Assembly (NCBI RefSeq): GCF_000018105.1
Contig: NC_009925.1
Location: 3,030,001 to 3,062,000 of the forward strand
DNA from: Acaryochloris marina MBIC11017
GTDB lineage: Bacteria > Cyanobacteriota > Cyanobacteriia > Thermosynechococcales > Thermosynechococcaceae
DNA length: 32,000 bases
Direction: 5' to 3'
The notes below the pieces were generated by a model. It made no database searches, had not been told where the DNA came from, and saw nothing but the letters and a program-made list of their open reading frames with translations. Of this stretch, positions 1,210 through 31,959 are shown piece after piece. Each line of letters opens with the position of its first letter. Within the stretch, counting starts at the first letter, position 1. The translations under genes were made by a program, and so were the position numbers.

Positions 1210-2679
<1,470 letters not shown>

Positions 2680-2984
2680 CTGACACAGATCCTAGCATTG
2701 ACAGGCAAGGCCCATCTCTGCAATTTTGTTTAAGTTTTACAAGAATTTGTGGAGTTTTGTCCGCTTTCTAAAACAAGTCGGTCAGGGATCTCATATTGAC
2801 GCTGCCATCAGTCATTTTTTGAGATAAACACCCCCGGCCAAAAAAAGAGTGGCAACTCTTCAAAGAAACACAGTAGGCTGGCAAACGTAGGGCTATGCTG
2901 CCATTGCTGCGCTTCCCTTTGTAATGGGTGACCGTTGCCGACCGATCTAGTCTAGCCAATCTTCAAACCGTCCGGAAAACAGTG

Positions 2985-16848: not shown

Positions 16849-16933
16849 AGTGGCTCTCCACATTCAAACATTCAAAGCAGTATTAGAACGTTACCGCACC
16901 CAATTCAAACATTCAAGCCAACATTAGAATGAC

Positions 16934-17299
16934 TTATTCAACCAGTTGGTTCAGTGTATGGTGGAGAATCTCAGCGACGCGCTGATCCTTGAGAGAGTAG
17001 TACGCTAATTTGCCATCATTGCGATACTTCAGAATTTGGAGATCCCGTAGCTTTCGTAAGTGGTGGGATGCCGTTGCGATCTTCATCCCCAGCAAAGACG
17101 CAACATCACAAACACAGAGTTCAGTTCCTTCACTCAGGGCATACAAAATCTTTAATCGGGACCGATCCGCTAACGCACTGAACAGCACTTGAGCCTCCAC
17201 CAGCAGATCTTCTCCCGGCAGTGCTTCATTCGCTTGGGTGACCAAGTCTTGGTTAAAACAACGGACTTGGCAAATATCTGTGGGCTTAGTCTGGGTCAC
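16934..17299 (-). CDS. ArsR/SmtB family metal-sensing repressor
   Basis: ELCVCDVASLLGMKIATASHHLRKLRDLQILKYRNDGKLAYYSL is the classical ArsR wHTH with the CVC (alpha3) motif. N-terminal cysteines occur in DICQVRC. GTG start. Confidence 0.88.
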   Translation of the reverse strand: MTQTKPTDICQVRCFNQDLVTQANEALPGEDLLVEAQVLFSALADRSRLKILYALSEGTELCVCDVASLLGMKIATASHHLRKLRDLQILKYRNDGKLAYYSLKDQRVAEILHHTLNQLVE

Positions 17300-18060: not shown

Positions 18061-18124
18061 CAACTGCATTCTATAGTCTCGTCAGTTAACGTTCAGGAAA
18101 CGCTGCATCTGTCATCTAACGGAT

Positions 18125-19607
18125 CAATGGCACTGACTTAAGAAGTCAGGAAAAGGCTACAAGTCTTGATAGATATAGGATCAAGACTTGCACGCCATAA
18201 ACTTCTGCCTTTCACTATGTCTGAGTCAGCCGAAATTCTCAAGCAGCAATTTTCCCAAAGCCTGGGTTTACCGTGGACAGATATCCTTCTAGCCTCAAGG
18301 TTAGAGGAACTCCTGAAAGAAGAAGCATTCTCCTATCGCAACCGGATATATAGCCCCATCGTTACGCTGTGGGCCATGCTTTACCAAGTGCTATCAGCCG
18401 ATAAAAGCCTTCGTAACACAGTCAAATGCATCACGACTTGGCTCACAGCGGCTGGCATCCAACCGCCCTCATCTGATACCGGAGCCTACAGCAAAGCCAG
18501 AAGTCGCTTTCCAGAGTCACTGTTGCAACGTTTAATTCCCGAAAGCGCTGAGTGCTTAGCGCAACCCCTCTCCCCAGAGCACCTCTGGTGTGGTCGGCCC
18601 GTCAAGGTCTACGACGGAACCACCGTGTTGATGGCTGATAGTGCGGCCAACCAAGCATCATATCCACAACATGGCAATCAAACAGCAGGCTGTGGTTTTC
18701 CCATCGCTCGCTTGGTAGTGTTCTTCTGCTTGGTTACCGGTGCAGTGGCGTCAGCTTGTATTGCCTCCTGGGACACCAGTGAAATTGTCATGAGTCGTTT
18801 GCTCTATCAAGACCTTGAGGTCGGTGATGTGGTCATGGCGGACCAAGCTTATGGCAGCTATGTTGATCTAGCCATCATTCAACAACACAGGGCTGATGGA
18901 GTGTTGCGTAAACATCATGCTCGCAAGACTGATTTCCGCAAAGGCAACAAGCATGGCATTGGTGATCATCAGGTGACATGGCATAAGCCAGCCCAACGGC
19001 CTGAGCACATGAGTGAGCAAGATTTTGCCCTGATTCCTCAAACATTGGTCGTTAGAGAGGTGTGTTTGCGCTTATCCCTTAAGGGCTTTCGCGACCAGCA
19101 CATTATTGTGGTGACGACGCTGCTGGATGCTCAACGCTACAGCGCTGGGCAACTGACTCGCTTGTATGGCTGGCGTTGGCCAATGGCGGAAGTCAATCTG
19201 CGCCATCTCAAAACCACCTTAAAAATGGAGATGCTCAGTGCCAAAACTCCGGATATGGTGCGCAAGGACATTTGGGTACATTTGTTGGGCTATAACCTAC
19301 TCAGAAGTCTCATGGAACTTGCGGCACCGCTAGCAGATAATGCTAGAACTCAACTGTCTGTGCAAGGAGCACGACAACACTTCAATCAGATGCTTGCTTT
19401 GTTGGCGACAGCCAACCGTGCGACCAGAAAGCGGTTGTTTACTCATCTACTTGAGACCATGGCAGCCGATCTATTACCCTCTCGACCGAATCGGCACGAA
19501 CCGAGAGTCGTCAAACGCAGACCCAAATCTTTCCCGCGAATGCGACAACCTCGCTCTGCTCTCAAAGCTAAGCTAGCTGTTTGATTGAGCTTAAGTCAGT
19601 GCCATTG
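18125..19607 (+). mobile_element. IS4-family insertion sequence (1483 bp), apparently intact
   Basis: Perfect 18-nt terminal inverted repeats: CAATGGCACTGACTTAAG at 18125-18142 and its reverse complement at 19590-19607. The element is flanked by the identical direct repeat ATCTAACGGAT at 18114-18124 and 19608-19618. Confidence 0.85.
18217..19584 (+). CDS. IS4-family DDE transposase
   Basis: Candidate DDE blocks are VYDGTTVLMADS, VVMADQAYGSY and YGWRWPMAEVNLRHLKTTLKM (Y-R-E-K region). The ATG at 18217 is the first ATG inside the track ORF, which starts at 18166. Confidence 0.88.
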   Translation: MSESAEILKQQFSQSLGLPWTDILLASRLEELLKEEAFSYRNRIYSPIVTLWAMLYQVLSADKSLRNTVKCITTWLTAAGIQPPSSDTGAYSKARSRFPESLLQRLIPESAECLAQPLSPEHLWCGRPVKVYDGTTVLMADSAANQASYPQHGNQTAGCGFPIARLVVFFCLVTGAVASACIASWDTSEIVMSRLLYQDLEVGDVVMADQAYGSYVDLAIIQQHRADGVLRKHHARKTDFRKGNKHGIGDHQVTWHKPAQRPEHMSEQDFALIPQTLVVREVCLRLSLKGFRDQHIIVVTTLLDAQRYSAGQLTRLYGWRWPMAEVNLRHLKTTLKMEMLSAKTPDMVRKDIWVHLLGYNLLRSLMELAAPLADNARTQLSVQGARQHFNQMLALLATANRATRKRLFTHLLETMAADLLPSRPNRHEPRVVKRRPKSFPRMRQPRSALKAKLAV

Positions 19608-19758
19608 ATCTAACGGATAGGTCTCAGGGGTGCGAGAATTATTTCAAAGCATTGGCAAATAGCTTGTGCCGAGCGTCCCTTGCAGACCCTTGTCATACCA
19701 ATTCCATATATGTGTGACTTGTATTATGGGAGTAGCGCGTTGCTGATACTTATCCCTC

Positions 19759-20238
19759 ATGCCCAGACCCTTACGAATTGATATCTGTGAAAGTGAAGAC
19801 ACACTCAAACGTTTATTACGTCAACAATCCTCCGGTCGTCGCAAAGAACGCTTGCAAGCCCTCTACTGGCTCAAAAGTGGTCAAGTCACCACTCGCATGG
19901 AGTTGGCAACCCTGACCGGACGAGGGGAATCCACGGTGTATCGCTGGATCAAACTCTATAAATCAGGGGGATTACAGGCAATGCTGGAGATTCCTACCTC
20001 TCCTGGGAAGCCCCCCATGATTGGTGGAGAGGTCCTCGAAAAGCTGAAAGCTCGTCTAGCTGACCCCAGGGGCTTTGAGAGCTACGGGGCGATTCAACAA
20101 TGGCTTTTAGATGAGTGTGGATTAGACGTACCCTACAAAACGGTTCATCAAACCGTGCATTATCGGCTCAAAGCCAAGCTCAAAGTTCCTCGACCTCGCT
20201 CACGCAAGACAGAGGAAGCTCAACAACAAGCCTATTAA
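19759..20238 (+). CDS. IS630-family transposase, N-terminal HTH part (OrfA)
   Basis: Winged-helix/HTH region (RMELATLTGRGESTVYRWIKLYKSGGLQAM), typical of IS630/Tc1 transposase N-termini. Confidence 0.8.
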   Translation: MPRPLRIDICESEDTLKRLLRQQSSGRRKERLQALYWLKSGQVTTRMELATLTGRGESTVYRWIKLYKSGGLQAMLEIPTSPGKPPMIGGEVLEKLKARLADPRGFESYGAIQQWLLDECGLDVPYKTVHQTVHYRLKAKLKVPRPRSRKTEEAQQQAY

Positions 20239-20251
20239 AAAACTTCCTCGT

Positions 20252-20818
20252 GTGATTGAGGTAATGACCCGCTATTTTGCCCAAGGACACCCAGTGCGCT
20301 ACTGGTGCATGGATGAAAGCCGCTGGGGACTCAAGACACTCACGGGTCGGGTTCTAACGTTGCGGGGTGTCAAACCTGTGGTGACGGTACAGTGGCCCCG
20401 AGAGGCTTTCTGGCTCTATGGCGCTGTCGAACCTCTCACAGGAGACAGTTTCTTCTATCGGTTTTCTCATCTCGATAGTGTTTGTTTTGAGCGCTTCCTG
20501 GAGCAATTCAGCTTGGCGTTTCCCCAGAGTCTCAATCTGATGCAAATAGATCAAGCCGCAGCCCATATGGCGACTTGGGTTCGATGGCCTGAGAATGTGT
20601 TGCCGATTGTACAGCCGTCTCATAGTCCAGAACTCAATCCGGCAGAGCGATTATGGCAGGACCTAAGAAAGCCTTTCAAAGGCAAAAACTTTGATTCTAT
20701 TGGGGCACTGGAGACCGCTTTATTTGAGCATATCAATACCCTCTCCCAGAAGGTGGTGGCTTCTCTAACGGGATATTCTTATATCTTGGATGCTTTGACT
20801 ATAAAGGTCACTCAATAA
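20252..20818 (+). CDS. IS630-family transposase, DDE catalytic part (OrfB)
   Basis: YWCMDESRWGL, LMQIDQAAAHM and PSHSPELNPAERLWQDLR are the DDE blocks of IS630/Tc1-mariner-type transposases. This ORF is in the +1 frame relative to OrfA. Confidence 0.8.
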   Translation: MIEVMTRYFAQGHPVRYWCMDESRWGLKTLTGRVLTLRGVKPVVTVQWPREAFWLYGAVEPLTGDSFFYRFSHLDSVCFERFLEQFSLAFPQSLNLMQIDQAAAHMATWVRWPENVLPIVQPSHSPELNPAERLWQDLRKPFKGKNFDSIGALETALFEHINTLSQKVVASLTGYSYILDALTIKVTQ

Positions 20819-20829
20819 GTGAATTGGTA

Positions 20830-21279
20830 TCAGGTTACAACACGACACACAATCTGTGGCTTTGTGGTTGAAATAACATCAACGCAATGATTTAGGCAAC
20901 AAAAACCATAGTGGCTGAATGGACCTGGGTAGTCAGAAGTGGCGAACGTGCTAACCTCCATAAACTCTAGATAAGCCGAACTTTTGTAAAGACGAGCTAA
21001 CTTGCCGACGTAGTTGTCTTGAGGTGCATTATCGGCATAAGACTCGTTCGCGACGTTGTAACAAATGTACTCAGCAAAAAATATTTCATAAATAGCACAG
21101 CCTTCGGTAGTTTCAATGTTACGCAGCCCAGATATTGTTGTACCAGCTATTTCCATGTCATGCTCTGGGCCATTCGCTGTAGCTTCGGCTAAGACTAGAC
21201 GTAGAGTATTATCTTCTGGTTCGGTAATTGATTCGAGGTACAGATACTTACTTCTGTTGATTTGATCGAAAGCTTCCAT
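20830..21279 (-). CDS. hypothetical acidic Cys-containing protein, compositionally atypical
   Basis: 149-aa ORF starting 6 nt after the DUF2063 gene stop. It looks lower in GC than its neighbours and has no HIP1 site. There is no TM segment and no recognised family. Its stop codon coincides with the IS630 terminus. Confidence 0.5.
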   Translation of the reverse strand: MEAFDQINRSKYLYLESITEPEDNTLRLVLAEATANGPEHDMEIAGTTISGLRNIETTEGCAIYEIFFAEYICYNVANESYADNAPQDNYVGKLARLYKSSAYLEFMEVSTFATSDYPGPFSHYGFCCLNHCVDVISTTKPQIVCRVVT

Positions 21280-21285
21280 GAGAGC

Positions 21286-22095
21286 CTAACTATTCTCATC
21301 TAAGCCAAGCATAAATCCGGATATCCATCCTCGCTGAACCCAGATTGGAAGCAAGGCTGCCACGTCAATCTCATCGTTGTGCTCAAACTGGGCGCAAATC
21401 TCTCCAAACGGAGCACCGGAAGCAAACGCCTGTAGGAGCTGCCACTCAGCAACATTGGGCAAGTCAATGCGGGTTTCATACTGGTCTCGCCAGAGAAACA
21501 GATTCACGTCGCCTTCATTTAGATCGATGGTCTCGGTACTGGCGGCATTGGCCTGATTCACTTGCCAAATTCGGTGAACCGGATAGGGGGAGGTCATTAA
21601 GACACTATGGTCGGGGAGTTGGAGCACCAGTTCGGGCCAACGGTCAGGCGGCACTTGACCCAAGGCCGCCAAATCTAAACCCGGTTGGTCTGAACTGTTA
21701 AAGATGCAGTGCCAATGCCACTCTAAGCGGGCTACATCCGGCAGATAGGGTAACGAAGCCGCTGGTTCAAACGCTGCGATAAATGCCGGGAGCTGTTCCC
21801 CATAATCTCCGAGATCGTGGGATTGAGAGGGATTGCGGCGGATATATTGCCGAGCCATGGCGGTAAAAAACTGGACCCCCACCAACCGACAACAGACGGG
21901 ATAAATATCTTCGAGGGCACGGCTCAATTTACCGACGACGCTGCCTTGGTAAGCCGATAAACCTCGTTCGAAGGAGAGGTGTTCAGTGCTGCGCATTTGA
22001 GGTTGGAGCTGCTGGATGCTGTCGGCATCTTTGGTTGAGATCGCACCATAAAACAACCGCTGTAACTCTCTTAATTCTGGGGGCGGTGTTGACAT
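21286..22095 (-). CDS. DUF2063-family partner protein of the MNIO enzyme (BufC-like)
   Basis: 269 aa. It overlaps the upstream DUF692 gene by 25 nt. The N-terminus (LQRLFYGAI...) and its position directly after DUF692 match the conserved DUF692-DUF2063 pair. Confidence 0.75.
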   Translation of the reverse strand: MSTPPPELRELQRLFYGAISTKDADSIQQLQPQMRSTEHLSFERGLSAYQGSVVGKLSRALEDIYPVCCRLVGVQFFTAMARQYIRRNPSQSHDLGDYGEQLPAFIAAFEPAASLPYLPDVARLEWHWHCIFNSSDQPGLDLAALGQVPPDRWPELVLQLPDHSVLMTSPYPVHRIWQVNQANAASTETIDLNEGDVNLFLWRDQYETRIDLPNVAEWQLLQAFASGAPFGEICAQFEHNDEIDVAALLPIWVQRGWISGFMLGLDENS

Positions 22096-22901
22096 AGATA
22101 GGTGTCGGCCTGCTGGGCTTCGGCCATCAAAACATCAAAGCTGGGAATATCCGTATCCCATTCAATCAACGTCGGCACCGGACCAAACCGCTGGAGCGCT
22201 TGCTGATAGAGCGTCCAGACTCCAGGCTGGACTGGATAGCCGTGGGTATCAAATAAAAAGTGGTCCTGCTCTTCATAACCCGCTAGATGGATCTCTTTAA
22301 TCCGATCGACGGGCAACGCATCCAGATAATCCAAGGGGTCAAAGCCATGATTGGTGGCATTGACATAGACATTGTTAATATCCAAAAGCAGATGACAATC
22401 GGCCTCAACTAAAAGGGCGGCTAAGAACTGCCATTCGGTCAGGCTGTTGTGGCGAAACTGAAGATAGGGCGATAGGTTCTCAATCAAAATCCGGCGACCG
22501 AGAAATTCCTGTACCTGCGAAATCCGATCGGCAACGTAATGGAGCACTGATTCCGTATAGGGCAGCGGTGCTAAGTCATTGAAGTAATGGCCGTTGACGG
22601 ACACCCAGGCCAGATGATCAGAGACATGAACCGGTTCGATCCGATCCGCCAGTTGCTTGAGCTGAGTTAGGTAGTCCATATTCAGCGGATCTGCTGACCC
22701 CAGGGACAGACTAACGCCATGGAGGGTGATCGGATACTGGGCTCGAATTTGTTCTAGGTGATACAGGGGCAATCCACCCCCCAAATAATTGTCGGAGAGG
22801 GCTTCTAGCCAGGGTATGGCTGGTTGATGGGTGAGGATATGGGCGTAATGTTGCGATCGCAACCCAATCCCAGCACCCTGAATTGCAGTCATGGCAACCA
22901 T
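22071..22901 (-). CDS. DUF692/UPF0276 multinuclear non-heme iron oxidase (MNIO; BufB/MbnB-like)
   Basis: GAGIGLRSQHY, LEALSDNY, HGVSLSLGS, SDHLAW, LIENLS, LLLDINNVYVN, IHLAGY and LIEWD follow the TIM-barrel DUF692 block order. I prefer the ATG at 22901 because GGAG lies 6 nt upstream. The longer track ORF (to 22946) would read through a strong hairpin. Confidence 0.85.
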   Translation of the reverse strand: MVAMTAIQGAGIGLRSQHYAHILTHQPAIPWLEALSDNYLGGGLPLYHLEQIRAQYPITLHGVSLSLGSADPLNMDYLTQLKQLADRIEPVHVSDHLAWVSVNGHYFNDLAPLPYTESVLHYVADRISQVQEFLGRRILIENLSPYLQFRHNSLTEWQFLAALLVEADCHLLLDINNVYVNATNHGFDPLDYLDALPVDRIKEIHLAGYEEQDHFLFDTHGYPVQPGVWTLYQQALQRFGPVPTLIEWDTDIPSFDVLMAEAQQADTYLCQHRPQN

Positions 22902-22921
22902 AAAATACTCCAAAACGTAAG

Positions 22922-22946
22922 GTGCCTGCTTTTCACAAGCAGGCAC
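22922..22946 (-). terminator. hairpin between the precursor and enzyme genes (possible partial terminator or attenuator)
   Basis: On the minus strand: GTGCCTGCTT-gtgaa-AAGCAGGCAC, a perfect 10-bp stem, then CTTACGTTTTGG. It lies 25 nt after the precursor stop and 20 nt before the MNIO start. Confidence 0.5.
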
Positions 22947-22971
22947 TCAAACTTTGCATGATTGAAACGAC

Positions 22972-23286
22972 CTAACCTTCTTTCTTGCCTTCTTCAACCG
23001 CTTCAGCAGGGGGGGCAGCTTCTTTCAAGGTAGATCCAACAATCTTTTCACAGGTGCCAGCAGGCACATAAATCCACTCTTCTGGATCATTATCAACGGT
23101 GGCTTTACCAGAGCAGTCATGCTTGCTAGTACCACAGTCATTGAGACCAGCCTTGACGATACCGGCGCACTTTTCATAACCGGGCTTACCAGCAACCGCA
23201 TCATCCGATTGAGTTGCCACTAGGCCGAGAGCCAGCACACCGGATAAAGCAGTGGTAACAGCAACGGCTTTAGTCGTCGTTTTCAT
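22972..23286 (-). CDS. DUF2282-family RiPP precursor with a Sec signal peptide (bufferin BufA1-like)
   Basis: Signal peptide [24 protein letters not shown], then [47 protein letters not shown]. This shows the four conserved Cys and the EWIYVP.GTCEKI block of DUF2282. The tail is acidic and Ala/Pro-rich. Confidence 0.85.
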
Positions 23287-24594: not shown

Positions 24595-25644
24595 CTAGAA
24601 AAATCCTTGACCTCGTGCACTTTGGGTCCAAAGCTGCCATTCTCCTTGCTGGCCCCCTAAAGCTAGGGTCTGACCATCTGGACTCCAAGCCAGGGCTGAA
24701 CCACTGATACTTTTTTGCGCTTGGACTAGCTTACCCCCACCTTGCCACAGACAGAGAAAGTCATCCGCTGCAGCAGATACTAAAAGAGTGGTATTAGGCT
24801 GAAAGGCAATGGCATTGACTGCTTGCGTGTGCTCTTCTAACAGCTCTGCTTCCCAGCCACTGCCTAGGCGGTGCCAAGTCGTAATGCAGTTACCACTGGC
24901 TGCGGACAGCAGGGGGTCAGCATCAACGGATTCAGCATCCGCTGACCAGGCTATTTGCCGAACTTTGCCAGGGAAACCCGTCATCCGCCAGGGTACGTCT
25001 TCTTCTGAAGGCCACACCACCATAGTGCGATCTAAATTTCCTGACGCTAAATATTGCCCGTCCGGCGACCAAGAGACACAGATACTCGATCCTGGAAGCT
25101 CTCGAATGGCGGGATCTTGATCCCAATCCTGCCAAATTTTGACCCCTTGATGGCCACCGACCGCCAGCCAATCCTGTTGCGGATGCCAGGCTAAATCTAA
25201 AACGGAAGAGTTTTCAAAGGCGAGAGTCGTCAGGACTTGCTGGGTCTCAACCTCCCAAACCTGGGCATAGCGCCCCAGGCTAAACACCAATTCTGGACGC
25301 CGAGGATGCCAGGCCAGTTGATCCACCCAGGTGCGAGGGTTCTCTAAACAGGTAAACAGCGTCGGTGCGTCGCCGCTCATCTCCCAAATCGAAACACGGC
25401 CATCTTGCCCTCCTGCTGCGAGAAAACGGCCATCAGCGGAGTAAGCCAATGCATCCACTGACTGTCCGGTGCCCGTTTGCAGACTATGGGTTTGTTGGGT
25501 GATTCGATTGAGACATTGAACATTACCCGCTCCATCGCAGGCGGCCACCTGCTGGCTATTGGGTGACCAGGCAATGGCCGTCACATAATCATCTAAACGC
25601 CCACGCCATTTGCGTCCAAGTCGTGGCTGAGTTACACGAGGCAA
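24595..25644 (-). CDS. WD40-repeat beta-propeller protein
   Basis: Repeated units such as AWSPNSQQVAACDGAGNV, AYSADGRFLAAGGQDGRVSIWE, SWSPDGQYLASGNLDRTMVVW and AWSPDGQTLALGGQQGEWQLW. The TTG start overlaps the COG0523 stop by 13 nt. Confidence 0.85.
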   Translation of the reverse strand: MPRVTQPRLGRKWRGRLDDYVTAIAWSPNSQQVAACDGAGNVQCLNRITQQTHSLQTGTGQSVDALAYSADGRFLAAGGQDGRVSIWEMSGDAPTLFTCLENPRTWVDQLAWHPRRPELVFSLGRYAQVWEVETQQVLTTLAFENSSVLDLAWHPQQDWLAVGGHQGVKIWQDWDQDPAIRELPGSSICVSWSPDGQYLASGNLDRTMVVWPSEEDVPWRMTGFPGKVRQIAWSADAESVDADPLLSAASGNCITTWHRLGSGWEAELLEEHTQAVNAIAFQPNTTLLVSAAADDFLCLWQGGGKLVQAQKSISGSALAWSPDGQTLALGGQQGEWQLWTQSARGQGFF

Positions 25645-26600
25645 GCTTGGAACCCCTTTCTTAACTGATCTTCATCTAAATTGCGGCCAATAAACACCAA
25701 CTCATTCTTGCGGGTTTCGCTAGCCTTCCAAGGGCGATCTGCACGGCCATCAAACAACATATGGACCCCCTGAAACACAAATCGCTGATCTTCTCCGGCA
25801 ATATTCAAAATTCCCTTCATCCGAAAGATATCAGGCCCCTTGGTTTGCAACAGATTGCCTAGCCAACCGTTGAGCCGTTCGCCATCAATCTCCCCCGATT
25901 CTGTTAAGGCCACCGACCCTACGGTTTCGTCATGCTCATGGGCATCTTCTCCCAAAAACTCAGGGTCGATCTCTAAAGCTCGGTCTAGATCAAAGGCACT
26001 CACACCTAAGATGGACTCCATCTCCACTGCCGCATCCTGAGTGCGATAAATTTTGGTCATGGCATTCATGGACCGGATTCGATTTTCCAGATCCGCCAAA
26101 TCCGCTTCGCTGACTAAATCGGTTTTATTGAGTAACACCACATCCGCAAAAGCGATTTGCTCCTGGGCTTCATCCGCATCCCAATGCTGGTGGATATGCT
26201 TGGCATCCACGACCGTCACTATCGCATCCAGATTGAGCTGGGTCTGCATATCTTCATCCACAAAGAAGGTCTGGATCACCGGAGCTGGATCCGCTAGCCC
26301 TGTGGTCTCAATCACCATATGGTCGAACTTATCTCGTCGTCGCATCAAGTTGCCAATAATCCGAATCAGATCGCCTCGCACGGTGCAACAGATGCAGCCA
26401 TTGTTCATTTCAAAGATTTCTTCATCGGCATCGATCACCAGCTGATTATCAATGCCCACCTCACCAAATTCATTGACAATCACGGCTACTTTTTTGCCAT
26501 GTTCGTGGGTGAGAATGCGGTTGAGTAAGGTTGTTTTTCCGGCTCCCAGATAGCCCGTTAGAACGGTGACAGGGACGGTATCTATTGCAGCGGTAACCAT
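25632..26600 (-). CDS. COG0523 (CobW/ZigA/Zng1-type) metallochaperone GTPase, no His-rich tract
   Basis: P-loop GYLGAGKTTLLN, CICCT and NKTDL, plus the C-terminal CobW_C-like block FRMKGILNIAGEDQRFVFQGVH. A Zur-like box lies upstream. Confidence 0.9.
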   Translation of the reverse strand: MVTAAIDTVPVTVLTGYLGAGKTTLLNRILTHEHGKKVAVIVNEFGEVGIDNQLVIDADEEIFEMNNGCICCTVRGDLIRIIGNLMRRRDKFDHMVIETTGLADPAPVIQTFFVDEDMQTQLNLDAIVTVVDAKHIHQHWDADEAQEQIAFADVVLLNKTDLVSEADLADLENRIRSMNAMTKIYRTQDAAVEMESILGVSAFDLDRALEIDPEFLGEDAHEHDETVGSVALTESGEIDGERLNGWLGNLLQTKGPDIFRMKGILNIAGEDQRFVFQGVHMLFDGRADRPWKASETRKNELVFIGRNLDEDQLRKGFQACLV

Positions 26601-26628: not shown

Positions 26629-26643
26629 GATAACGATTATCAT
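26629..26643. promoter_or_regulatory. Zur/Fur-type operator upstream of the COG0523-WD40 operon
   Basis: The minus strand reads ATGATAATCGTTATC. The window offset by one base reads TGATAATCGTTATCT and matches TGATAATnATTATCA at all but two positions. It lies about 30 nt upstream of the start at 26600. Confidence 0.6.
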
Positions 26644-26714
26644 TCTACAAATATTTCGACGTCAGTTTGGCGACTTTACCTTAGCTTTAGCTTTTCAAGG
26701 CGATGGGATAGGTT

Positions 26715-26732
26715 CTGGATTTCTCACCAGCC
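26715..26732. repeat. 18-nt sequence whose exact reverse complement occurs at 30754-30771
   Basis: CTGGATTTCTCACCAGCC here and GGCTGGTGAGAAATCCAG at 30754-30771. Confidence 0.7.
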
Positions 26733-26777
26733 GATGCCAACAAACTGCATGAGTGAGTAACATCAGTTGATTTAATC

Positions 26778-27027
26778 GCAGATCAGTAGCCGTTTTTGAC
26801 TCACCCAGTCCATCTGTTCTGTGTTGATGATTCTCTACCTTGATTCAGTGAATGATCGCAATTGGGGTGGAAGTGAGGGTGTTATGCGACACAATATCGG
26901 AATAACCCTTTATTTTGGAGAATTCTCCAACATCTGGCCTATAATCCACTGAGAGAAGGTGTTATACGATAGGTGGTACCTAGCATTACTTATAGATGTG
27001 TTATGCGATAGCCTGACGTATCCATAG
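26778..27027 (+). repeat. direct repeat copy L (about 250 bp) upstream of the AbiH-like gene
   Basis: It aligns by eye with 28354-28551, for example GTAGCCGTTtTTGACTCACC, TGTGTTGATGAT.CTCTACCTTG.TTCAGTGA, CAATTGGGG, CTGGC.TATAATCC and ATAGAT.TGTTAT.CGA. L carries extra segments of about 40 and 13 nt. Confidence 0.7.
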
Positions 27028-27133
27028 TTATGTACAAGAACCTTCATCGAAAATGATTGAGAAAGATCATTGTGTAAACTCTTCGAGACCCTCAATTGCT
27101 CAGTCAATTGAACTACAGCATAGATAAAAATAT

Positions 27134-28114
27134 ATGAATGTTGTTTTTATTTTGGGAAATGGATTTGATCTTAACCTGGGATTAAACACCAGCTACTCCG
27201 ATTTTTACAACTACTATAAAAAACAAGTTTCATCAAACGAAGTAATCAAAGAGTTAAAGGAAAATATAGATTCAAATACAGAAAACTGGTCTGATCTAGA
27301 GCTTCAATTGGGGCGCTATACCTCAAGACTAAAAGATCAAAATGACTTCGATATTTTCTATTTCGATATAGTAGACAATCTAAGAGACTATCTTGATCTT
27401 GAAGAAGATAGTTTTGACTACTCTGCATTTGACAAGTCCGTATTGTTGAGAGATCTTGTTGAGCCTGAAAGAGTTTTATCTCAGAGAGAAAGAAATAAAC
27501 TAACAGATTGGTATCGAAAATTCGGAGGTAATATAAACACTAACATTTTGACATTTAATTATACTCAAACAATTGAAAAAATACTTGGCAAAAATGCCAC
27601 TAGTCAGCCGATTGGCACAAATAATAAAGGCGTACAAGTTTTACTAAATAGTATTGACCACATACATGGATATCTTGAAGATGGTCTCGTACTAGGAGTA
27701 AATGATGAGGAACAAATTGAAAATGAAAAATTACGTCTGTCTCAGGAGGTTGTCGAGGCCATTGTTAAGCCCATGCACAATCAAGAGTTAGGGCATACGA
27801 GAGATGATCGCTGCATGCAAGTTATATCTGCAGCGAACCTAATATTTGTGTTTGGCTGTTCGATTGGTAAATCTGATCAGATGTGGTGGGAAAAAGTTGG
27901 CAGCACACTAGGGGAATCTTGTCGGCTAGTTATATTTCATCGAGGTAGTAATGTGAATAGCCAGAATGATATCCTGTATGCTCGTGAGAATCGTAAGATA
28001 ATAAATCGATTTTTATCACTAACGAACTTGGATGAAGAAAAAAGGGACATTGCAAAGCAGTATATTACCGCTGCTGTGACTAAAGACCTGTTCAAGCTTG
28101 TCAAAAGTACATAA
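27134..28114 (+). CDS. AbiH-like abortive-infection (phage defence) protein
   Basis: The N-terminus MNVVFILGNGFDLNLGLNTSYSDFYNYY matches the hallmark GNGFDL..GL.TSY.DF start of the AbiH family. The 326-aa length fits. The gene is strongly AT-rich with no HIP1 sites, unlike the flanking DNA. Confidence 0.72.
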   Translation: MNVVFILGNGFDLNLGLNTSYSDFYNYYKKQVSSNEVIKELKENIDSNTENWSDLELQLGRYTSRLKDQNDFDIFYFDIVDNLRDYLDLEEDSFDYSAFDKSVLLRDLVEPERVLSQRERNKLTDWYRKFGGNINTNILTFNYTQTIEKILGKNATSQPIGTNNKGVQVLLNSIDHIHGYLEDGLVLGVNDEEQIENEKLRLSQEVVEAIVKPMHNQELGHTRDDRCMQVISAANLIFVFGCSIGKSDQMWWEKVGSTLGESCRLVIFHRGSNVNSQNDILYARENRKIINRFLSLTNLDEEKRDIAKQYITAAVTKDLFKLVKST

Positions 28115-28288
28115 TCTTGCCACGCAAGGGATACTCAAAATTCCCTTCAAGTTGTGTATTTTATAATTCTGCTCGTACCCCTGATGAATGACAGTTAAAT
28201 TTTAGTTCGTAAGAAATTTTGCCTTTCTTTGTGCTGAAGAATTGGGAAGCATGCTTGTGCTTGTTATCTTAAAAGTACAATTAAATGC

Positions 28289-28348
28289 GTGAAGATTGTC
28301 TCAGACACTAATATTTTCGTGGCCGTTGCGCGTGAAGAAGAAGGTTAA
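28289..28348 (+). pseudogene. possible remnant of a PIN-domain toxin N-terminus
   Basis: The GTG-initiated 19-codon ORF VKIVSDTNIFVAVAREEEG* resembles the (I/V)xDTN(V/I)(L/F)V N-terminal acidic motif of PIN toxins. It stops 5 nt before repeat copy R. Confidence 0.25.
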
Positions 28349-28353
28349 CTTAA

Positions 28354-28551
28354 GCGTAGATCGGTAGCCGTTGTTGACTCACCTACTCAATCTATTTTGT
28401 GTTGATGATCCTCTACCTTGCTTCAGTGAGTTGTCTCAATTGGGGCAGAAGTGAAGTTATTATCCGATACCTGGCATATAATCCGCTGAAATAGGGTTTT
28501 ATACGTAAATATTATTCATAGATATGTTATACGACTGATGTATACTCACAG
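28354..28551 (+). repeat. direct repeat copy R (about 200 bp) downstream of the AbiH-like gene
   Basis: See copy L. The orientation is the same. Confidence 0.7.
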
Positions 28552-28595
28552 TCCGGCTGCTACTGCTAATTGCTTGATAAAAGCTAAGCGAAAGG

Positions 28596-29321
28596 TTACA
28601 GGTGAGCGTTGGATTGAGGTTCTTCCTCACGCACACTACAAGTTTGTGTCGCAAAAAGTTGTGCAACCATTTTTGTCCGCGACGAAACTTTGAGCTTACG
28701 AAACATTCGCTTTAGAGCCTGTTTGACAGAATTTTCGGTGATCCAAAGTTCCTTGCCAATTTCTGCATTGGTTCGTCCTAAAGCAACTAAATTGGCGATC
28801 TCCAACTCACGCGGCGTTAACCGTTTGGTGCTCAACAATGGGTTCTGAGAGTTCATGGTGCTTTGTTGCGATCGCACTGTAGTCGTCCAGGTAGACAGGT
28901 GCAAACAAACCGCACTTAAATCAGCTAAATCCTGATGATCAAAGGCTGGCATCGATTTTTCGCGAGTACAACCCACTGCACCGACTAACTGACCGCAGTT
29001 AACGATCGGTCCTGCCATCACATGCCAATGATCCGGTCGAGGACAGATCAATGTCCAAGCTTTGGGTGTTGTCACTAATCCTTCATGGACAGGGGTATGG
29101 CATTCCGCAAGGTAGCGCGCCAGCGGATTGTGTTCCAGGGAGAGAACGATGTTTAGAATGCCCTGAAACTTAGGCTCCGAGAGAAGCTGGTCAAAGAAAA
29201 AGATCCCTGATCGCTTCGCTGTAAAGTACTCACCCACCTTCGGCGCTAGGTGCGATCGCAAGTCATCCTCATGCTTACACTGGTGAGTTTCTTCAAATAA
29301 AAGCTTCAAAGAAAGAGTCAT
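28596..29321 (-). CDS. LuxR-family transcriptional regulator with an N-terminal GAF-like sensor domain
   Basis: C-terminal LuxR HTH: LTPRELEIANLVALGRTNAEIGKELWITENSVKQALKRMFRKLKVSSR. The N-terminal ~160 aa is globular and GAF-like. Confidence 0.85.
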   Translation of the reverse strand: MTLSLKLLFEETHQCKHEDDLRSHLAPKVGEYFTAKRSGIFFFDQLLSEPKFQGILNIVLSLEHNPLARYLAECHTPVHEGLVTTPKAWTLICPRPDHWHVMAGPIVNCGQLVGAVGCTREKSMPAFDHQDLADLSAVCLHLSTWTTTVRSQQSTMNSQNPLLSTKRLTPRELEIANLVALGRTNAEIGKELWITENSVKQALKRMFRKLKVSSRTKMVAQLFATQTCSVREEEPQSNAHL

Positions 29322-30555: not shown

Positions 30556-30753
30556 ACAATGGTTATCCCAGACTGCATCAAACAATTCTGTTGAAGCGGG
30601 TTATTGCCGGATGGCAATGCATACGAAGTCTACTGATAACCGCTCAACAGGAACGTTAGATTCCAAAGACACCGAAGCTCAACCAAAATACAGAGTGTGT
30701 TGTTTGCAAGATTCTCTGCAAACCTGCAGACGGCTATAGGCAAACTAATCTAG

Positions 30754-30771
30754 GGCTGGTGAGAAATCCAG
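30754..30771. repeat. inverted partner of the 18-mer at 26715-26732
   Basis: GGCTGGTGAGAAATCCAG is the exact reverse complement of 26715-26732. Confidence 0.7.
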
Positions 30772-30873
30772 GTGGTGGGTTACCTTGCTCTGGGGGCGTA
30801 GTCGCGATCGCCAACACTTTCCAATTAGAATCAGAGCATAGGCAACATTTGAGTCACACTGAGTAAGCTGTCT

Positions 30874-31443
30874 ATGGAAACGCTGACCATCAATGCTTCA
30901 AAAGCAGCATTAACTGAAGCGCAGTTTTACGACATTTGTCGTCAAAATGAAGGATTACGCTTTGAAATGACCGCACAGGGAGATTTAATCGTTATGCCTC
31001 CAGTGGGCGGTCTAAGTGGAAGTCGTGAATCTGATTTGAATGCAGATGTGCAGATTTGGAATCGGCGTACTGGCTTAGGTCGGGTATTTAGTTCTTCAAC
31101 GGTGTTTCAATTGCCCAATGGTGCGAAGCGATCACCGGATGTTGCCTGGGTCGAACAAAGTCGCTGGGATACCCTCTCAAGAGAAGCGCAAGAACGATTC
31201 CCACCCCTAGCTCCCGATTTTGTGATTGAGTTACGGTCTCGGACCGATGACCTAGCTGCACTACAAGCGAAAATGCAGGAATATGCAGAAAACGGCGTGC
31301 GGCTCGGTTGGCTAATCAATCCACAGGATCAGCAAGTAGAAATTTATCAACCAGGGAAAGATACAGAAGTGCGATCGCTGCCAACTCAACTGTCAGGAGA
31401 AGAGATATTACCAGGTTTTACCCTGGATTTATCGCCGTTTTAG
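30874..31443 (+). CDS. Uma2 family (DUF820) endonuclease
   Basis: FEMTAQGDLIVMPPVGG, RSPDVAWV, PDFVIELRS and GVRLGWLINPQDQQVEIY are the standard Uma2/DUF820 blocks found in cyanobacteria. Confidence 0.85.
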   Translation: METLTINASKAALTEAQFYDICRQNEGLRFEMTAQGDLIVMPPVGGLSGSRESDLNADVQIWNRRTGLGRVFSSSTVFQLPNGAKRSPDVAWVEQSRWDTLSREAQERFPPLAPDFVIELRSRTDDLAALQAKMQEYAENGVRLGWLINPQDQQVEIYQPGKDTEVRSLPTQLSGEEILPGFTLDLSPF

Positions 31444-31499: not shown

Positions 31500-31895
31500 T
31501 TAGGCTAAAGCCCCCACTTCAGCGCAGTTCTGGCATAGGCCAAAGAATTCTAGGGTGTGGTAAAAGACTTGAAATTTCTGGGTTTGGGCAAGCTCTTGTT
31601 CTAACTCGTGGACTGGGCAGTTCAGCAATGGCATGGAAGTGCCACAGTTGACACAAGTCAGATGATGCCGATGAGCAGAAGCAATACTATAGACTGCTTC
31701 ACCATTCGTCAAAGTACGCGTTTGCACCTTGCCATGCTGTTGGAGAACCTTGAGGGCACGGTAAATGGTTGCCAACCCCACTCGTTGTTGCTGTTTTTTT
31801 AACTCTTGGTGCAGATCCTGAGCAGAGAACTCTTGGGGCGTGGAAAAGAGGACTTCCAACACGCGCCGCTGATGAGGGGTTAGTTTCTCTGGCAT
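31500..31895 (-). CDS. zur: Fur-family metalloregulator, most likely Zur
   Basis: LTPHQRRVLEVL...GLATIYRALKVL is the DNA-binding helix. The HRHHLTCVNCG and CQNC motifs give two CxxC pairs plus a His cluster. I prefer the ATG at 31895 because AGGAG lies upstream. The Zur assignment, rather than Fur or PerR, rests on the neighbouring COG0523 genes and Zur-type boxes. Confidence 0.75.
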   Translation of the reverse strand: MPEKLTPHQRRVLEVLFSTPQEFSAQDLHQELKKQQQRVGLATIYRALKVLQQHGKVQTRTLTNGEAVYSIASAHRHHLTCVNCGTSMPLLNCPVHELEQELAQTQKFQVFYHTLEFFGLCQNCAEVGALA

Positions 31896-31959
31896 GCTCA
31901 ACTCCTTACTGCACCTGGAATGAGAACAGTTTTTTGGCAAATCACAAGATTATCAAACA

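What the first reader, a model, noticed from the sequence alone, without database searches (positions are those of the whole stretch)
26778..28551. AT-rich AbiH-like defence gene carried as a cassette between two ~200-250 bp direct repeats
The 326-aa ORF starts with the AbiH hallmark (ILGNGFDLNLGLNTSYSDF). It is conspicuously AT-rich and free of HIP1, which suggests recent horizontal acquisition. It is bracketed by two same-orientation copies of a non-coding sequence (26778-27027 and 28354-28551) that align well by eye. Each copy contains a CTGGC(C/A)TATAATCC promoter-like element pointing rightwards. Each also has three dispersed GTTAT(G/A)CGA-like motifs (26881, 26961 and 27000; degenerate equivalents near 28456, 28496 and 28526). 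No integrase or transposase lies between the repeats. A 19-codon PIN-toxin-like remnant (28289-28348) stops 5 nt before the right copy, which suggests the right repeat marks a recombination junction. The repeats could be recombination or att-like sites of a small defence cassette, duplicated promoter-leader regions, or a structured ncRNA partner of the Abi protein. The AbiH mechanism is unknown.
Basis: partly seen in the sequence, partly recalled or inferred. Interest (0 to 1): 0.75.

Follow-up and report, generated by a model that had tools for sequence, protein, structure and literature searches.

The report
Repeat-framed anti-phage gene slot in Acaryochloris
A sirtuin-like AbiH anti-phage gene sits in a chromosomal slot of the cyanobacterium Acaryochloris where different strains carry different defence genes, and the slot is framed by two copies of a roughly 340-bp non-coding, promoter-bearing module, which makes it an unusually tidy but not radically new defence hotspot.

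Summary
ORF 27134-28114 is an AbiH-family protein (Pfam E=9e-53) with a SIR2-like predicted fold. It is AT-rich (36% vs 48% GC) and lies between two direct copies of a non-coding module, R.

Comparison with four related assemblies changes the interpretation.
- The cobW-luxR gap is a strain-variable defence slot. It holds AbiH here, a Type II restriction-modification system in L026, a nuclease-like 376-aa protein in L007, and unidentified cargo in L027.
- R frames the slot in every allele. Full-length R is 26688-27029. The right copy (28344-28552) is truncated at its 5' end.
- A relative about 13% diverged in abiH has the same layout, so the insertion is old, not recent.
- R flanks unrelated cargos and shows no significant covariation, so it is not an AbiH-specific RNA partner.

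The left copy carries a hairpin plus T-run, then a TGGAGA-18-TATAAT promoter-like site, then a leader with GTTATRCGA motifs. The first cargo gene is always co-oriented with it. Three different sequences join R at the same terminal nucleotide (+/-2).

Best reading: a resident expression and recombination scaffold for exchangeable defence modules. Whether exchange is homologous or site-specific is unresolved. No recombinase gene lies in the window. Chromosome-wide copy number of R could not be checked.

The parts
25632..26600 (-). Left core flank: a COG0523/CobW-type GTPase gene. The window and L007 are 99-100% identical from here up to 26694.
   Evidence: Pfam cobW 3e-63 and CobW_C 9.5e-29. Sliding identity and alignment.
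26629..26643 (.). Fur/Zur-box-like palindrome (GATAACGATTATCAT) in the cobW upstream region. It lies outside the repeat module.
   Evidence: Read directly. The consensus it resembles is from my own knowledge. It is identical in L007 and L026. Binding was not tested.
26688..27029 (+). R_L, the full-length copy of the non-coding module R (about 342 nt). Its left end coincides with the point where identity between strains drops from 100% to about 78%. Its right end is the cargo junction (...CGTAT-CCATAGT|T).
   Evidence: BLAST and nhmmer against L026, whose right copy reaches back to the equivalent of 26688. Seven-copy alignment A10. Identity drop at 26695. Junction alignment.
26877..26916 (+). 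Hairpin (26877-26908) plus T-run (26909-26916), resembling an intrinsic terminator. It is specific to left copies and includes most of the 41-nt segment that right copies lack.
   Evidence: Folding of three alleles gives -15.5, -18.3 and -21.8 kcal/mol (z -2.8, -3.1, -5.2). L026 has a different stem sequence but the same hairpin followed by UUUUGG. The simple terminator scan did not flag it.
26916..26945 (+). Sigma-70-type promoter-like site, TGGAGA-18-TATAAT, pointing at abiH. The inferred transcription start is near 26952.
   Evidence: The best-scoring promoter-like site of the scan (10 of 12); no other + strand site lies upstream of abiH. TATAAT is kept in all three left copies and in the right copies of two alleles. 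The start site itself is inferred.
26881..27008 (+). Array of GTTATRCGA motifs about 39-41 nt apart: 26881, a degenerate copy at 26922, 26961 and 27000. An inverted copy (CGTAT(A)AC) lies at 27017-27023. The units are degenerate tandem copies of about 39 nt.
   Evidence: 4 exact hits against 0.31 expected. The internal 39-nt unit was detected as a repeat family in L026 (D2). Alignment. TRF finds nothing in the window copy.
27030..27133 (+). Linker and leader between R_L and abiH. It is shared with L005 (82%). Only the last ~20 nt are shared with the AbiH locus in the unrelated context L003.
27134..28114 (+). abiH: a 326-aa AbiH-family protein with a SIR2-like fold. Invariant residues are G8-N9-G10-F11-D12, N142-Y143 and H176/H178.
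   Evidence: Pfam. PADLOC AbiH match is weak, E=1.3e-6, N-terminal only. 463 homologues. Alignment invariants. AlphaFold2 pLDDT 89.2, pTM 0.88. Foldseek top hits are ThsA, CobB, DSR2 and Sir2.
28115..28215 (+). The 3' tail of the abiH module. It includes the hairpin CTTGCCACGCAAG and travels with the gene into unrelated genomic contexts.
   Evidence: About 79% identity with L003/L004 over the first ~82-100 nt after the stop codon, and no homology beyond that.
28251..28348 (+). Two overlapping mini-ORFs of 13 and 19 codons with a GTGA overlap. The second has a PIN-like N-terminus. I read them as the remnant of an earlier cargo, possibly a vapBC-type pair.
   Evidence: Direct reading. In L005 the region is 90% identical at nt level, but all four differing codons change the amino acid, including the D of DTN. 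The PIN assignment cannot be tested at this length.
28344..28552 (+). R_R, the right copy of R. It is 5'-truncated (lacks the equivalent of 26688-26765), lacks the hairpin/T-run segment, and keeps TATAAT (28477-28482) and three degenerate motifs (28456, 28497, 28526). Its last ~70-80 nt are the only part of the right copy kept in all alleles.
   Evidence: Among alleles, homology on the right begins at 28343 (L026), 28477 (L027) or 28486 (L007). R_R 5' part is 89% conserved against L005, compared with 76% for the neighbouring spacer (Fisher p=0.005).
28596..29321 (-). Right core flank: a LuxR/GerE-family regulator conserved across cyanobacteria (75-87% aa identity).
   Evidence: Pfam GerE 7e-13. 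Homologues. Its last ~25 codons vary among alleles.

Best explanation
**What it is.** The region is one allele of a strain-variable anti-phage defence slot in the cobW-luxR gap of Acaryochloris. The source strain is A. marina MBIC10699. The variable unit has the form R_L - cargo - R_R.

**The R module.** R is a ~340-bp non-coding module that stays at the locus. It does not travel with the cargo genes. When abiH or the 376-aa gene turns up in other genomes, it brings only 20-40 nt of upstream and ~100 nt of downstream sequence, and no R.

**The left copy.** R_L is always complete. In order it contains a hairpin plus T-run that could stop incoming transcription, a sigma-70-type promoter-like site, and an ~80-nt leader carrying GTTATRCGA motifs. 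The first cargo gene is always co-oriented with it, 105 to about 185 nt downstream. I infer that R_L is the expression platform for whichever effector occupies the slot, and that the motifs bind an unidentified protein, either a repressor or a recombination protein.

**The right copy.** R_R is an old paralogue that evolves together with the luxR flank and is eroded from its 5' side by deletions.

**Cargo turnover.** This is partly shown and partly inferred. Whole alleles are exchanged by homologous recombination in the nearly identical core flanks. New cargo is joined at the 3' terminus of R.

**The cargo here.** AbiH most likely acts as a SIR2-type NAD+-consuming abortive-infection effector. 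That rests on fold and conserved residues only.
For: **Variable slot between the same flanks**
- AbiH in the window, L001/L002 and L005.
- A 376-aa protein with weak restriction-endonuclease-like fold hits in L007/L008.
- A Type II REase (PADLOC 2e-101), a specificity subunit and an MTase (6e-147) in L026.
- A fourth, unidentified cargo in L027.
- All cargos have 36-38% GC against 49% in the flanks.

**R frames every allele**.

**Sharp allele boundaries**
- The window and L007 are 100% identical up to 26694. From there they are about 78% identical through R_L, unrelated in the cargo, and back to 97% after about 28670.
- 26694 is 6 nt from the start of R, which was defined independently from the right copy of L026.
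- Right copies cluster at 85-90% identity. Left copies are as far from one another (77%) as from right copies.

**Common 3' terminus.** After ...CGTATA(A/C)-YCAYAGT, four sequences diverge within 2 nt: TATGTAC (abiH allele), TAGCTAGC (L007), TCAGTTGG (L026) and CCGGCTGC (luxR flank).

**Promoter and hairpin:**

**Age and selection.** L005 has the same layout. abiH is 87% identical at nt level, with 67/36/21 substitutions at codon positions 3/1/2.

**Cargo modules move without R**.

**AbiH fold.** pLDDT 89.2. The top Foldseek hit is ThsA (8bto_A, E=6e-5, probability 1.0), followed by CobB, DSR2 and Sir2. The review PMC13064643 reaches the same conclusion.
Against: - No transcription data exist, so the promoter, the terminator and the transcription start are consensus-level inferences. 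The promoter scan as a whole finds no more sites than shuffled sequence does (5 found against 6.4 expected).
- No protein that binds GTTATRCGA is known, and the motifs are no better conserved than the rest of R.
- Homologous recombination in the flanks does not by itself explain why unrelated cargos start at the same nucleotide after R, or why R is duplicated.
- L007 and L026 share 7 nt (TTCAGTT) after the junction, so there are fewer independent junctions than a first count suggests.
- Only five assemblies could be compared, and no single-R 'empty' allele was found.
- I could not scan the Acaryochloris chromosome for further R copies. The genome-contig scan did not return even the source species.
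- AbiH NADase activity and any phage phenotype are untested. TM-scores to SIR2 structures are modest (0.3-0.47).
Confidence: 0.55

Rival explanations
1. R is a site-specific recombination platform, comparable to an integron attI site with its Pc promoter or to a dif-like site. A tyrosine recombinase encoded elsewhere would bind the three or four direct GTTATRCGA copies and the terminal inverted pair (CGTATAA-CCATAG-TTATG) and exchange strands at ...CAYAG|T. Circular defence modules would thereby be inserted or swapped downstream of the resident promoter, and R_R would be the second product site.
For: - Four different right-hand partners join R within 2 nt of each other.
- The left end of R coincides with the allele boundary.
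- The layout of direct motif copies, then an inverted pair, then the junction inside the last motif copy (AG|TTATGT) parallels attI1 with its DR1, DR2, L and R boxes. This parallel is from my own knowledge.
- The terminal ATAA-N6-TTAT arrangement resembles the core of dif. Cyanobacterial dif sites are unknown, although Xer genes are present (PMC3025954).
- The last ~80 nt of R are the only part of the right copy kept in all alleles.
Against: - No recombinase gene was found among the window ORFs scanned, nor between the repeats of any allele.
- No attC-like palindrome was recognised at the cargo 3' ends.
- The right cargo boundaries are ragged and sit next to gene fragments (a PIN-like remnant, a Uma2 5' fragment joined at TGAA microhomology, a Uma2 internal fragment). 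These look like deletion scars.
- The abiH and 376-aa gene modules seen in other genomes do not end at this junction. Linkers of about 80-137 nt lie in between.
- The junction motifs each miss the integron GTTRRRY core by one base, which chance easily allows.
- The most recent allele swap that can be seen has its breakpoints outside R or at its outer edge.
Confidence: 0.2
2. R_L and R_R are the neutral leftovers of one ancient tandem duplication (or Campbell-type integration) of the original cobW-luxR intergenic region. They would have no present function beyond ordinary promoter and terminator signals, and cargo turnover would be ordinary hotspot dynamics.
For: - No significant covariation and no Rfam match.
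- The right copy is truncated to a different extent in each allele and loses its TATAAT box in L007.
- The motifs are no better conserved than the sequence around them.
- Hotspots between core genes without mobility genes are common (PMC10121019 and PMC10250203; titles and abstracts only).
Against: - Cargo junctions coincide at the terminus of R.
- The allele boundary coincides with the start of R.
- The hairpin plus T-run is maintained with a different stem sequence in L026.
- The 5' part of R_R is more conserved than the adjacent spacer (89% against 76%, p=0.005).
- The left copy is complete in all three alleles where it can be seen.
Confidence: 0.17
3. R is one member of a dispersed repeat family of Acaryochloris, such as a MITE-like or promoter-bearing mobile module. 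Two members happen to flank this slot, and recombination between dispersed copies shuffles the cargo.
For: - R behaves as a discrete unit with defined ends that abut several different sequences.
- Acaryochloris genomes are rich in IS elements. ISAcma16 and ISAcma28 lie 6-8 kb away.
Against: - There are no other copies in the 32-kb window or in any locus fetched (nhmmer).
- No match in PLSDB at about 65-70% identity or better. PLSDB does hold plasmids of the source strain MBIC10699, of strain S15 and of 'Moss Beach'.
- No match in phage records, viral contigs or JGI metagenomes.
- I see no terminal inverted repeats or target-site duplication (direct reading).
- The left junction with the cobW promoter is identical in all alleles.
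Confidence: 0.06
4. R encodes an RNA partner of AbiH, for example a type III antitoxin-like array of repeats or another structured ncRNA.
For: - Degenerate tandem units of about 39-41 nt lie upstream of a toxic effector gene.
- A possible hairpin GGTAGCC...CTACC in the 5' part of R is 95% paired across six copies.
Against: - The same module precedes a restriction endonuclease and an unrelated 376-aa gene.
- AbiH homologues in other genomes lack R.
- AbiH has a SIR2-like fold, not a ToxN/AbiQ-type RNase fold.
- Covariation does not exceed the controls (59-94 of 500 shuffles reach the observed values).
- The consensus fold of the 3' part of R is only -4.5 kcal/mol.
- There is no terminator between the units and the gene.
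Confidence: 0.02

Closest known systems
Core defence hotspots between conserved genes (P. aeruginosa cDHS, PMC10250203; E. coli defence-island hotspots, PMC10121019)
   Same: There are fixed core flanks (cobW, luxR), AT-rich defence cargo that differs from strain to strain, no mobility genes inside, and allele exchange with breakpoints in the flanks.
   Different: The slot is tiny, holding one to a few genes. It is framed by two paralogous copies of a ~340-bp non-coding module with a promoter-like site, a hairpin and an iterated 9-nt motif, and the cargo joins that module at a fixed nucleotide. I did not find such a scaffold described, but I read only the titles and abstracts of those papers.
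Lactococcus lactis AbiH (Prevots 1996) / Pfam PF14253
   Same: It is a single-gene system of similar size, with the N-terminal GNGFD motif and a full-length Pfam match.
   Different: It is only distantly related to the lactococcal protein: the PADLOC AbiH model matches the first ~75 residues at E=1e-6. The host is a cyanobacterium, and no phenotype is known.
SIR2-domain defence NADases (Thoeris ThsA, DSR2)
   Same: The predicted fold matches. The Rossmann-type GxG motif, an Asn (N142 in TFNYT) and a His (H176/H178 in HIHG) are invariant.
   Different: AbiH is a stand-alone ~326-aa protein with no SLOG or sensor domain. Its trigger and its enzymatic activity are unknown. TM-scores are only 0.3-0.47.
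Integron platform (attI with DR1/DR2/L/R integrase-binding boxes, plus the Pc promoter)
   Same: A resident promoter is followed by iterated direct motifs and an inverted pair. Promoter-less cargo joins at a fixed point inside the last motif, and the first cargo gene is co-oriented.
   Different: There is no intI gene and no recognisable attC sites. The motif is GTTATRC rather than GTTRRRY. The second copy of the platform lies downstream of the cargo.
Xer-dependent modules (IMEX elements, Acinetobacter pdif modules; PMC6449649)
   Same: Small cargo modules that include defence or TA genes are bounded by short recombination sites and lack their own recombinase. The end of R has an ATAA-N6-TTAT core.
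   Different: pdif modules are bounded by 28-bp sites in alternating orientation. Here the boundaries are 200-340-bp direct repeats. The cyanobacterial Xer target is unknown, so the resemblance cannot be scored.
Type III toxin-antitoxin systems (ToxIN, AbiQ/antiQ)
   Same: Tandem units of about 36-45 nt lie upstream of an abortive-infection effector.
   Different: The units here are degenerate and flank the promoter. The effector is not a ToxN-fold RNase, and the module is shared with unrelated cargos.

Membership tests
AbiH (Pfam PF14253) | Full-length profile match above the curated cut-off | tested here: met
   180.4 bits against a cut-off of 30.9; residues 4-269 cover profile positions 1-260 of 260.
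AbiH (Pfam PF14253) | Conserved N-terminal GNGFD motif | tested here: met
   G8 N9 G10 F11 D12 are invariant in 40 homologues.
AbiH (Pfam PF14253) | Acts alone, with no obligatory partner gene | tested here: met
   The neighbours differ completely between the window and L003/L004. Only the gene plus ~20 nt upstream and ~100 nt downstream are shared.
AbiH (Pfam PF14253) | Abortive-infection phenotype against phage | not testable with these tools
   This needs a phage challenge experiment.
SIR2-like defence NADase | SIR2/Rossmann fold | tested here: met
   The model has pLDDT 89.2. Foldseek ranks 1-27 are all ThsA, CobB, DSR2, Sirt5 or Sir2. The best is 8bto_A at E=6.3e-5, probability 1.0, TM 0.47. 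No PDB hit is found at sequence-profile level.
SIR2-like defence NADase | Catalytic Asn and His in register with ThsA N112/H152 | tested here: inconclusive
   N142 and H176/H178 are invariant. I did not check a residue-level superposition onto ThsA.
SIR2-like defence NADase | NAD+ hydrolysis on infection | not testable with these tools
   This needs biochemistry.
Core-gene-flanked defence hotspot | Same conserved flanks with different cargo among strains | tested here: met
   At least four alleles lie between cobW and luxR. Flank identity is 93-100%.
Core-gene-flanked defence hotspot | Cargo enriched in defence genes | tested here: met
   AbiH. Type II restriction-modification system. The 376-aa protein has only weak endonuclease-like fold hits. 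One cargo is unknown.
Integron | intI tyrosine recombinase next to attI | tested here: not met
   No recombinase family was found in the window ORFs scanned, nor between the repeats of any allele.
Integron | attC sites (R''-L''...L'-R') closing each cassette | not tested
   No attC model was available. By eye there is no such palindrome at the cargo 3' ends, which carry gene fragments instead.
Integron | GTTRRRY core at cassette boundaries | tested here: inconclusive
   The junctions read G|TTATGT, G|TTAGCT, G|TTCAGT and G|TCCGGC. Each misses the consensus by at least one base, and chance can explain that level of match.
Type III toxin-antitoxin | ToxN/AbiQ-fold endoribonuclease toxin | tested here: not met
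   AbiH has a SIR2-like fold.
Type III toxin-antitoxin | Near-identical tandem RNA repeats followed by a terminator, upstream of the toxin gene | tested here: not met
   TRF finds no array. The units are degenerate. The only terminator-like hairpin lies upstream of the promoter-like site.
MITE / dispersed repeat | Terminal inverted repeats and a target-site duplication | tested here: not met
   The ends TAGCTTTTCAAGG... and ...CGTATCCATAGT are not inverted copies of each other, and no duplication flanks them (direct reading).
MITE / dispersed repeat | Many copies per genome | tested here: inconclusive
   None in the window, the fetched loci, Acaryochloris plasmids, phage records or metagenomes. 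The chromosome itself could not be scanned, and the genome-contig scan missed even the source species.
Xer/dif-type module | A 28-bp site matching the host's dif consensus | not testable with these tools
   No cyanobacterial dif consensus exists (PMC3025954).

The most novel reading that the evidence does not exclude
R is the docking and expression platform of an integron-like defence-cassette system that has no integrase of its own. Its 3' terminus (...CGTATAA-CCATAG|TT) is preceded by direct GTTATRCGA copies and one inverted copy. Under this reading it is the target of a tyrosine recombinase encoded elsewhere, possibly the divergent cyanobacterial Xer, whose site has never been identified. 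That recombinase would swap small defence modules downstream of a resident, insulated promoter.
Probability: 0.15. Interest if true: 0.8.

Novelty: new variant of a known kind. Interest (0 to 1): 0.45.

Why it matters
If the scaffold reading holds, this is a compact and experimentally tractable model for how a chromosome keeps a 'socket' for exchangeable anti-phage genes. One resident promoter and leader module would express whichever toxic effector is plugged in, and the paired copies would mark where exchange happens.

It also gives a concrete cyanobacterial AbiH on which to test the predicted SIR2/NAD+ mechanism. It flags the widespread and unannotated 376-aa family as a candidate defence gene.

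If the terminus of R turns out to be a recombinase target, it could reveal the unknown Xer or tyrosine-recombinase site of cyanobacteria. If R is simply an old duplication, the locus is an ordinary small defence hotspot.

Tried and rejected
- **Known RNA families.** Rfam at gathering thresholds found only a TPP riboswitch elsewhere in the window. At E up to 5, the region gave only two chance-level hits.
- **Structured RNA.** RNAalifold on the 3' and 5' parts of R gave weak energies and 0-2 compensatory pairs. The pair count for the best hairpin did not exceed the shuffles. The three-allele fold of R_L (-44 kcal/mol) draws its compensatory changes almost entirely from the hairpin/T-run.
- **Tandem repeats.** TRF found none in the window. 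The ~39-nt unit is visible only in L026.
- **Pattern scans.**
  - Genome contigs gave 4 chance hits in unrelated phyla and did not recover the source species, so it says nothing about copy number.
  - Metagenome contigs gave 7 AT-rich chance hits, none confirmed by nhmmer.
  - Viral contigs gave none with either pattern.
  - BLASTN against plasmids and phages gave none.
- **Coding potential of R.** The small ORFs are not conserved in length or sequence among copies.
- **Empty site.** None was found. More distant LuxR loci (L016-L018) lack both cobW synteny and R.
- **Precise cassette ends for abiH.** The L003 comparison shows that the gene module does not end at the R junction.
- **Identity of the 376-aa protein.** No hit in Pfam, NCBIfam, PADLOC, PHROGs or PDB sequences. 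Foldseek against PDB gave nothing below E=0.5. Against BFVD there were only weak partial matches to DUF559, DUF2726 and restriction-endonuclease-like proteins.
- **HIP1 absence as evidence of foreign origin.** Not significant.


Full report
**Source and observation.** The window is from the chromosome of Acaryochloris marina. It is virtually identical to AP026075.1, whose companion plasmid records name strain MBIC10699. The same AbiH protein is also on a 6,503,724-bp contig.

- Two direct copies of a non-coding sequence bracket a 326-aa ORF. 26766-26892 matches 28344-28470 at 81%, and 26922-26968 matches 28459-28505 at 79%.
- A 20-nt core occurs only at these two places in the window, against zero expected.
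- GTTATRCGA occurs four times, always inside the copies, against 0.31 expected.
- The ORF is a full-length Pfam AbiH match, E=9e-53.
- It has 36% GC in a 48% GC window.
- The lack of HIP1 is not informative, because P(0)=0.39.

**What the gene is.** 463 homologues were found at E<=1e-10, mostly in uncultured material. A 40-sequence alignment has invariant G8-N9-G10-F11-D12, N142-Y143 and H176/H178.

The AlphaFold2 model is confident, with pLDDT 89.2 and pTM 0.88. All of its best PDB matches are SIR2-family proteins. These are Thoeris ThsA (E=6e-5, probability 1.0), CobB, DSR2 and archaeal and bacterial Sir2. A 2026 review reached the same conclusion for lactococcal AbiH by HHpred and AlphaFold, and proposed NAD+ depletion without experimental test (PMC13064643).

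I therefore commit to a SIR2-type NAD+-consuming abortive-infection effector. This is an inference from fold and conserved residues. The TM-scores are modest (0.3-0.47), and no activity is shown.

**Comparative anatomy of the locus.** This is the main result. Exact-protein look-ups of AbiH, LuxR and members of the LuxR 90% cluster retrieved four further versions of the same cobW-luxR gap.
- **L005.** AbiH is 83% identical at aa level. The contig has the end of the left copy, abiH, the mini-ORF remnant, the right copy and the luxR 3' end, all collinear with the window. abiH is 87% identical at nt level, with substitutions concentrated at third codon positions (67/36/21). The arrangement is therefore old and the gene is under purifying selection.
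- **L007/L008.** The flanks are 91-100% identical to the window, but an unrelated AT-rich 376-aa gene replaces abiH.
- **L026.** The gap holds a Type II restriction endonuclease (PADLOC 2e-101), a specificity subunit and a methyltransferase (6e-147), plus two small ORFs.
- **L027.** There is yet another sequence to the left of the right copy, but the contig ends there.

All cargos have 36-38% GC. This is a strain-variable defence slot.

**The repeat module R.**
- Every allele has R on both sides.
- The right copy of L026 extends ~75 nt further 5' than the window's right copy and aligns with window 26688-26765. Full-length R is therefore 26688-27029, and the window's right copy is truncated.
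- Left copies are complete in all three alleles where they can be seen.
- Right copies begin at R position 1 (L026), about position 76 (window, L005), the -10 box (L027) or just after it (L007).
- Each truncated right copy abuts a gene fragment: a PIN-like 19-codon remnant here, a 316-nt copy of a Uma2 5' region joined at TGAA microhomology in L007, and a 41-nt Uma2 internal piece in L026. These look like deletion scars.

**The 3' terminus of R is sharp.** After ...CGTATA(A/C)-YCAYAGT the sequences diverge within 2 nt. They continue as TATGTAC (abiH allele), TAGCTAGC (L007), TCAGTTGG (L026) and CCGGCTGC (luxR flank, right copies). L007 and L026 share TTCAGTT a few bases later, so they may share one junction event.

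**The 5' terminus coincides with an allele boundary.** The window and L007 are 100% identical up to 26694. Identity then falls to about 78%.

**The two copies evolve differently.** Right copies cluster at 85-90% identity and evolve with the luxR flank. Left copies are as divergent from one another (77%) as from right copies. R_L therefore co-segregates with its cargo as a deep allele.

**Content of R_L.**
- A hairpin plus T-run (26877-26916) is specific to left copies. It is maintained in three alleles even though L026 has an entirely different stem. The folding energies are -15.5, -18.3 and -21.8 kcal/mol, with z from -2.8 to -5.2.
- It is followed directly by the best-scoring promoter-like site of the scan, and the only + strand one upstream of abiH: TGGAGA-18-TATAAT at 26916-26945.
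- An ~80-nt leader follows, built from degenerate ~39-nt units that each start with GTTATRCGA. It ends in an inverted copy of the motif.
- The first cargo gene is co-oriented in all three alleles, starting 105 to about 185 nt after R.

I infer that R_L is an insulated expression platform. All of these signals are at consensus level only.

**R is not cargo.** In other organisms abiH (L003/L004) and the 376-aa gene (L028-L033) carry only ~20-40 nt of upstream and ~100-110 nt of downstream sequence, and no R.

**R is not an AbiH-specific RNA.** It serves unrelated cargos. Rfam finds nothing. Consensus folds are weak. The one plausible hairpin in the 5' part of R shows no covariation beyond the controls.

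**R is not detectably dispersed.** No further copy is found in the window or in any fetched locus. There is none in PLSDB, which does include plasmids of MBIC10699, S15 and 'Moss Beach'. There is none in phage records, viral contigs or JGI metagenomes. The chromosome could not be searched. The genome-contig scan failed to recover even the source species, so it is uninformative.

**Mechanism of exchange.** The window-L007 comparison shows that whole alleles (R_L, cargo and part of R_R) are swapped with breakpoints at or outside the ends of R. That pattern fits homologous recombination in nearly identical flanks.

This does not explain two things. It does not explain the duplication of R. It also does not explain why unrelated cargos join R at one nucleotide.

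A site-specific reading would explain both. Under it, the terminal inverted motif pair is a core site, the upstream direct motifs are accessory sites, and a recombinase acts in trans. That reading resembles attI plus Pc, or a dif-like site.

Several points count against it.
- No recombinase family was found in the window ORFs scanned.
- No attC-like ends were recognised.
- The right boundaries are ragged.
- The cyanobacterial Xer target is unknown, so the resemblance cannot be scored (PMC3025954).

I give the scaffold explanation (hotspot with a resident expression module and unspecified recombination) 0.55, and the site-specific platform 0.2. A functionless old duplication gets 0.17, a dispersed repeat 0.06 and an RNA partner 0.02.

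**Verdict.**
The cassette idea holds. Recent acquisition and an RNA partner do not.
- The gene is a new member of a known family.
- The repeat-framed slot is a new variant of the known defence-hotspot theme.
- Interest is moderate. It would rise substantially if the terminus of R proved to be a recombinase target.

Noticed in passing
L007:4443-5573 (minus strand); relatives P0247-P0366; L028:164-1294: A widespread 376-aa protein family occupies this defence slot in a sister strain. It has 337 hits, many labelled 'topoisomerase II' by NCBI, and no Pfam, NCBIfam, PADLOC or PHROG match. Foldseek gives only weak partial matches to DUF559, DUF2726 and restriction-endonuclease-like viral proteins. 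In L028 the gene lies about 1.7 kb upstream of a gene with a weak Phage_integrase hit. It is a candidate uncharacterised defence gene.
   Followed up: partly
window 26629-26643, 25632-26600, 12485-13603, 16231-17299, 31500-31940: A Fur/Zur-box-like palindrome (GATAACGATTATCAT) lies just upstream of the COG0523/cobW gene. A FUR-family regulator gene, a second cobW paralogue, an ArsR/SmtB-type repressor and a cation-efflux gene are nearby. Together they look like a zinc-homeostasis neighbourhood.
   Followed up: no
window 18069-21301: Two IS elements sit here: an IS4-like ISAcma16 (18166-19584) and an IS630-like ISAcma28 (two ORFs, 19759-20818). The block is absent from the otherwise collinear L007. 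Near-identical copies are on the plasmids of strain MBIC10699.
   Followed up: partly
window ~21286-23286 (L001 4153-6153): A bufferin-like RiPP cluster is present. It has a BufA1 precursor, an MbnB/TglH/ChrH-family enzyme and an HvfC_N protein, according to the precomputed Pfam hits.
   Followed up: no
window 2594-2687 (minus strand): A TPP riboswitch (Rfam RF00059, 64.5 bits) lies upstream of thiC (1210-2586). This is ordinary.
   Followed up: yes
L007 ~4054-4350 (about 300 nt); L026:4254-4294; window 30642-30951 and 31070-31110: Fragments of a Uma2-family gene abut the right repeat copy in two other alleles. One is its 5' region in L007, and the other is a 41-nt internal piece in L026. An intact Uma2 gene lies 2.3 kb away in every strain. 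It is unexplained why Uma2 pieces recur at this boundary.
   Followed up: partly
window 28596-28670: The last ~25 codons of the otherwise highly conserved luxR-family gene differ among alleles. L005 and L007 share variants against the window. The recombination tract evidently reaches into the gene.
   Followed up: no
window 28115-28215; L003:9559-9660: About 100 nt after the abiH stop codon, including the hairpin CTTGCCACGCAAG, are conserved with an AbiH locus in a completely different genomic context. The gene therefore travels with a defined 3' tail of unknown role.
   Followed up: partly
L026:4439-5118 (minus strand): Two overlapping small ORFs of 88 and 138 aa lie between the methyltransferase gene and the right repeat copy. 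They have no hit in any library. They could be an accessory or toxin-antitoxin-like pair of that allele.
   Followed up: no
Genome-contig scan: A pattern that matches both window copies exactly, and also copies in L007 and L026, returned no Acaryochloris record from the species-representative genome collection. Either no Acaryochloris genome carrying this locus is in that collection, or the stretch is masked. Negative results from that scan should not be over-read.
   Followed up: no
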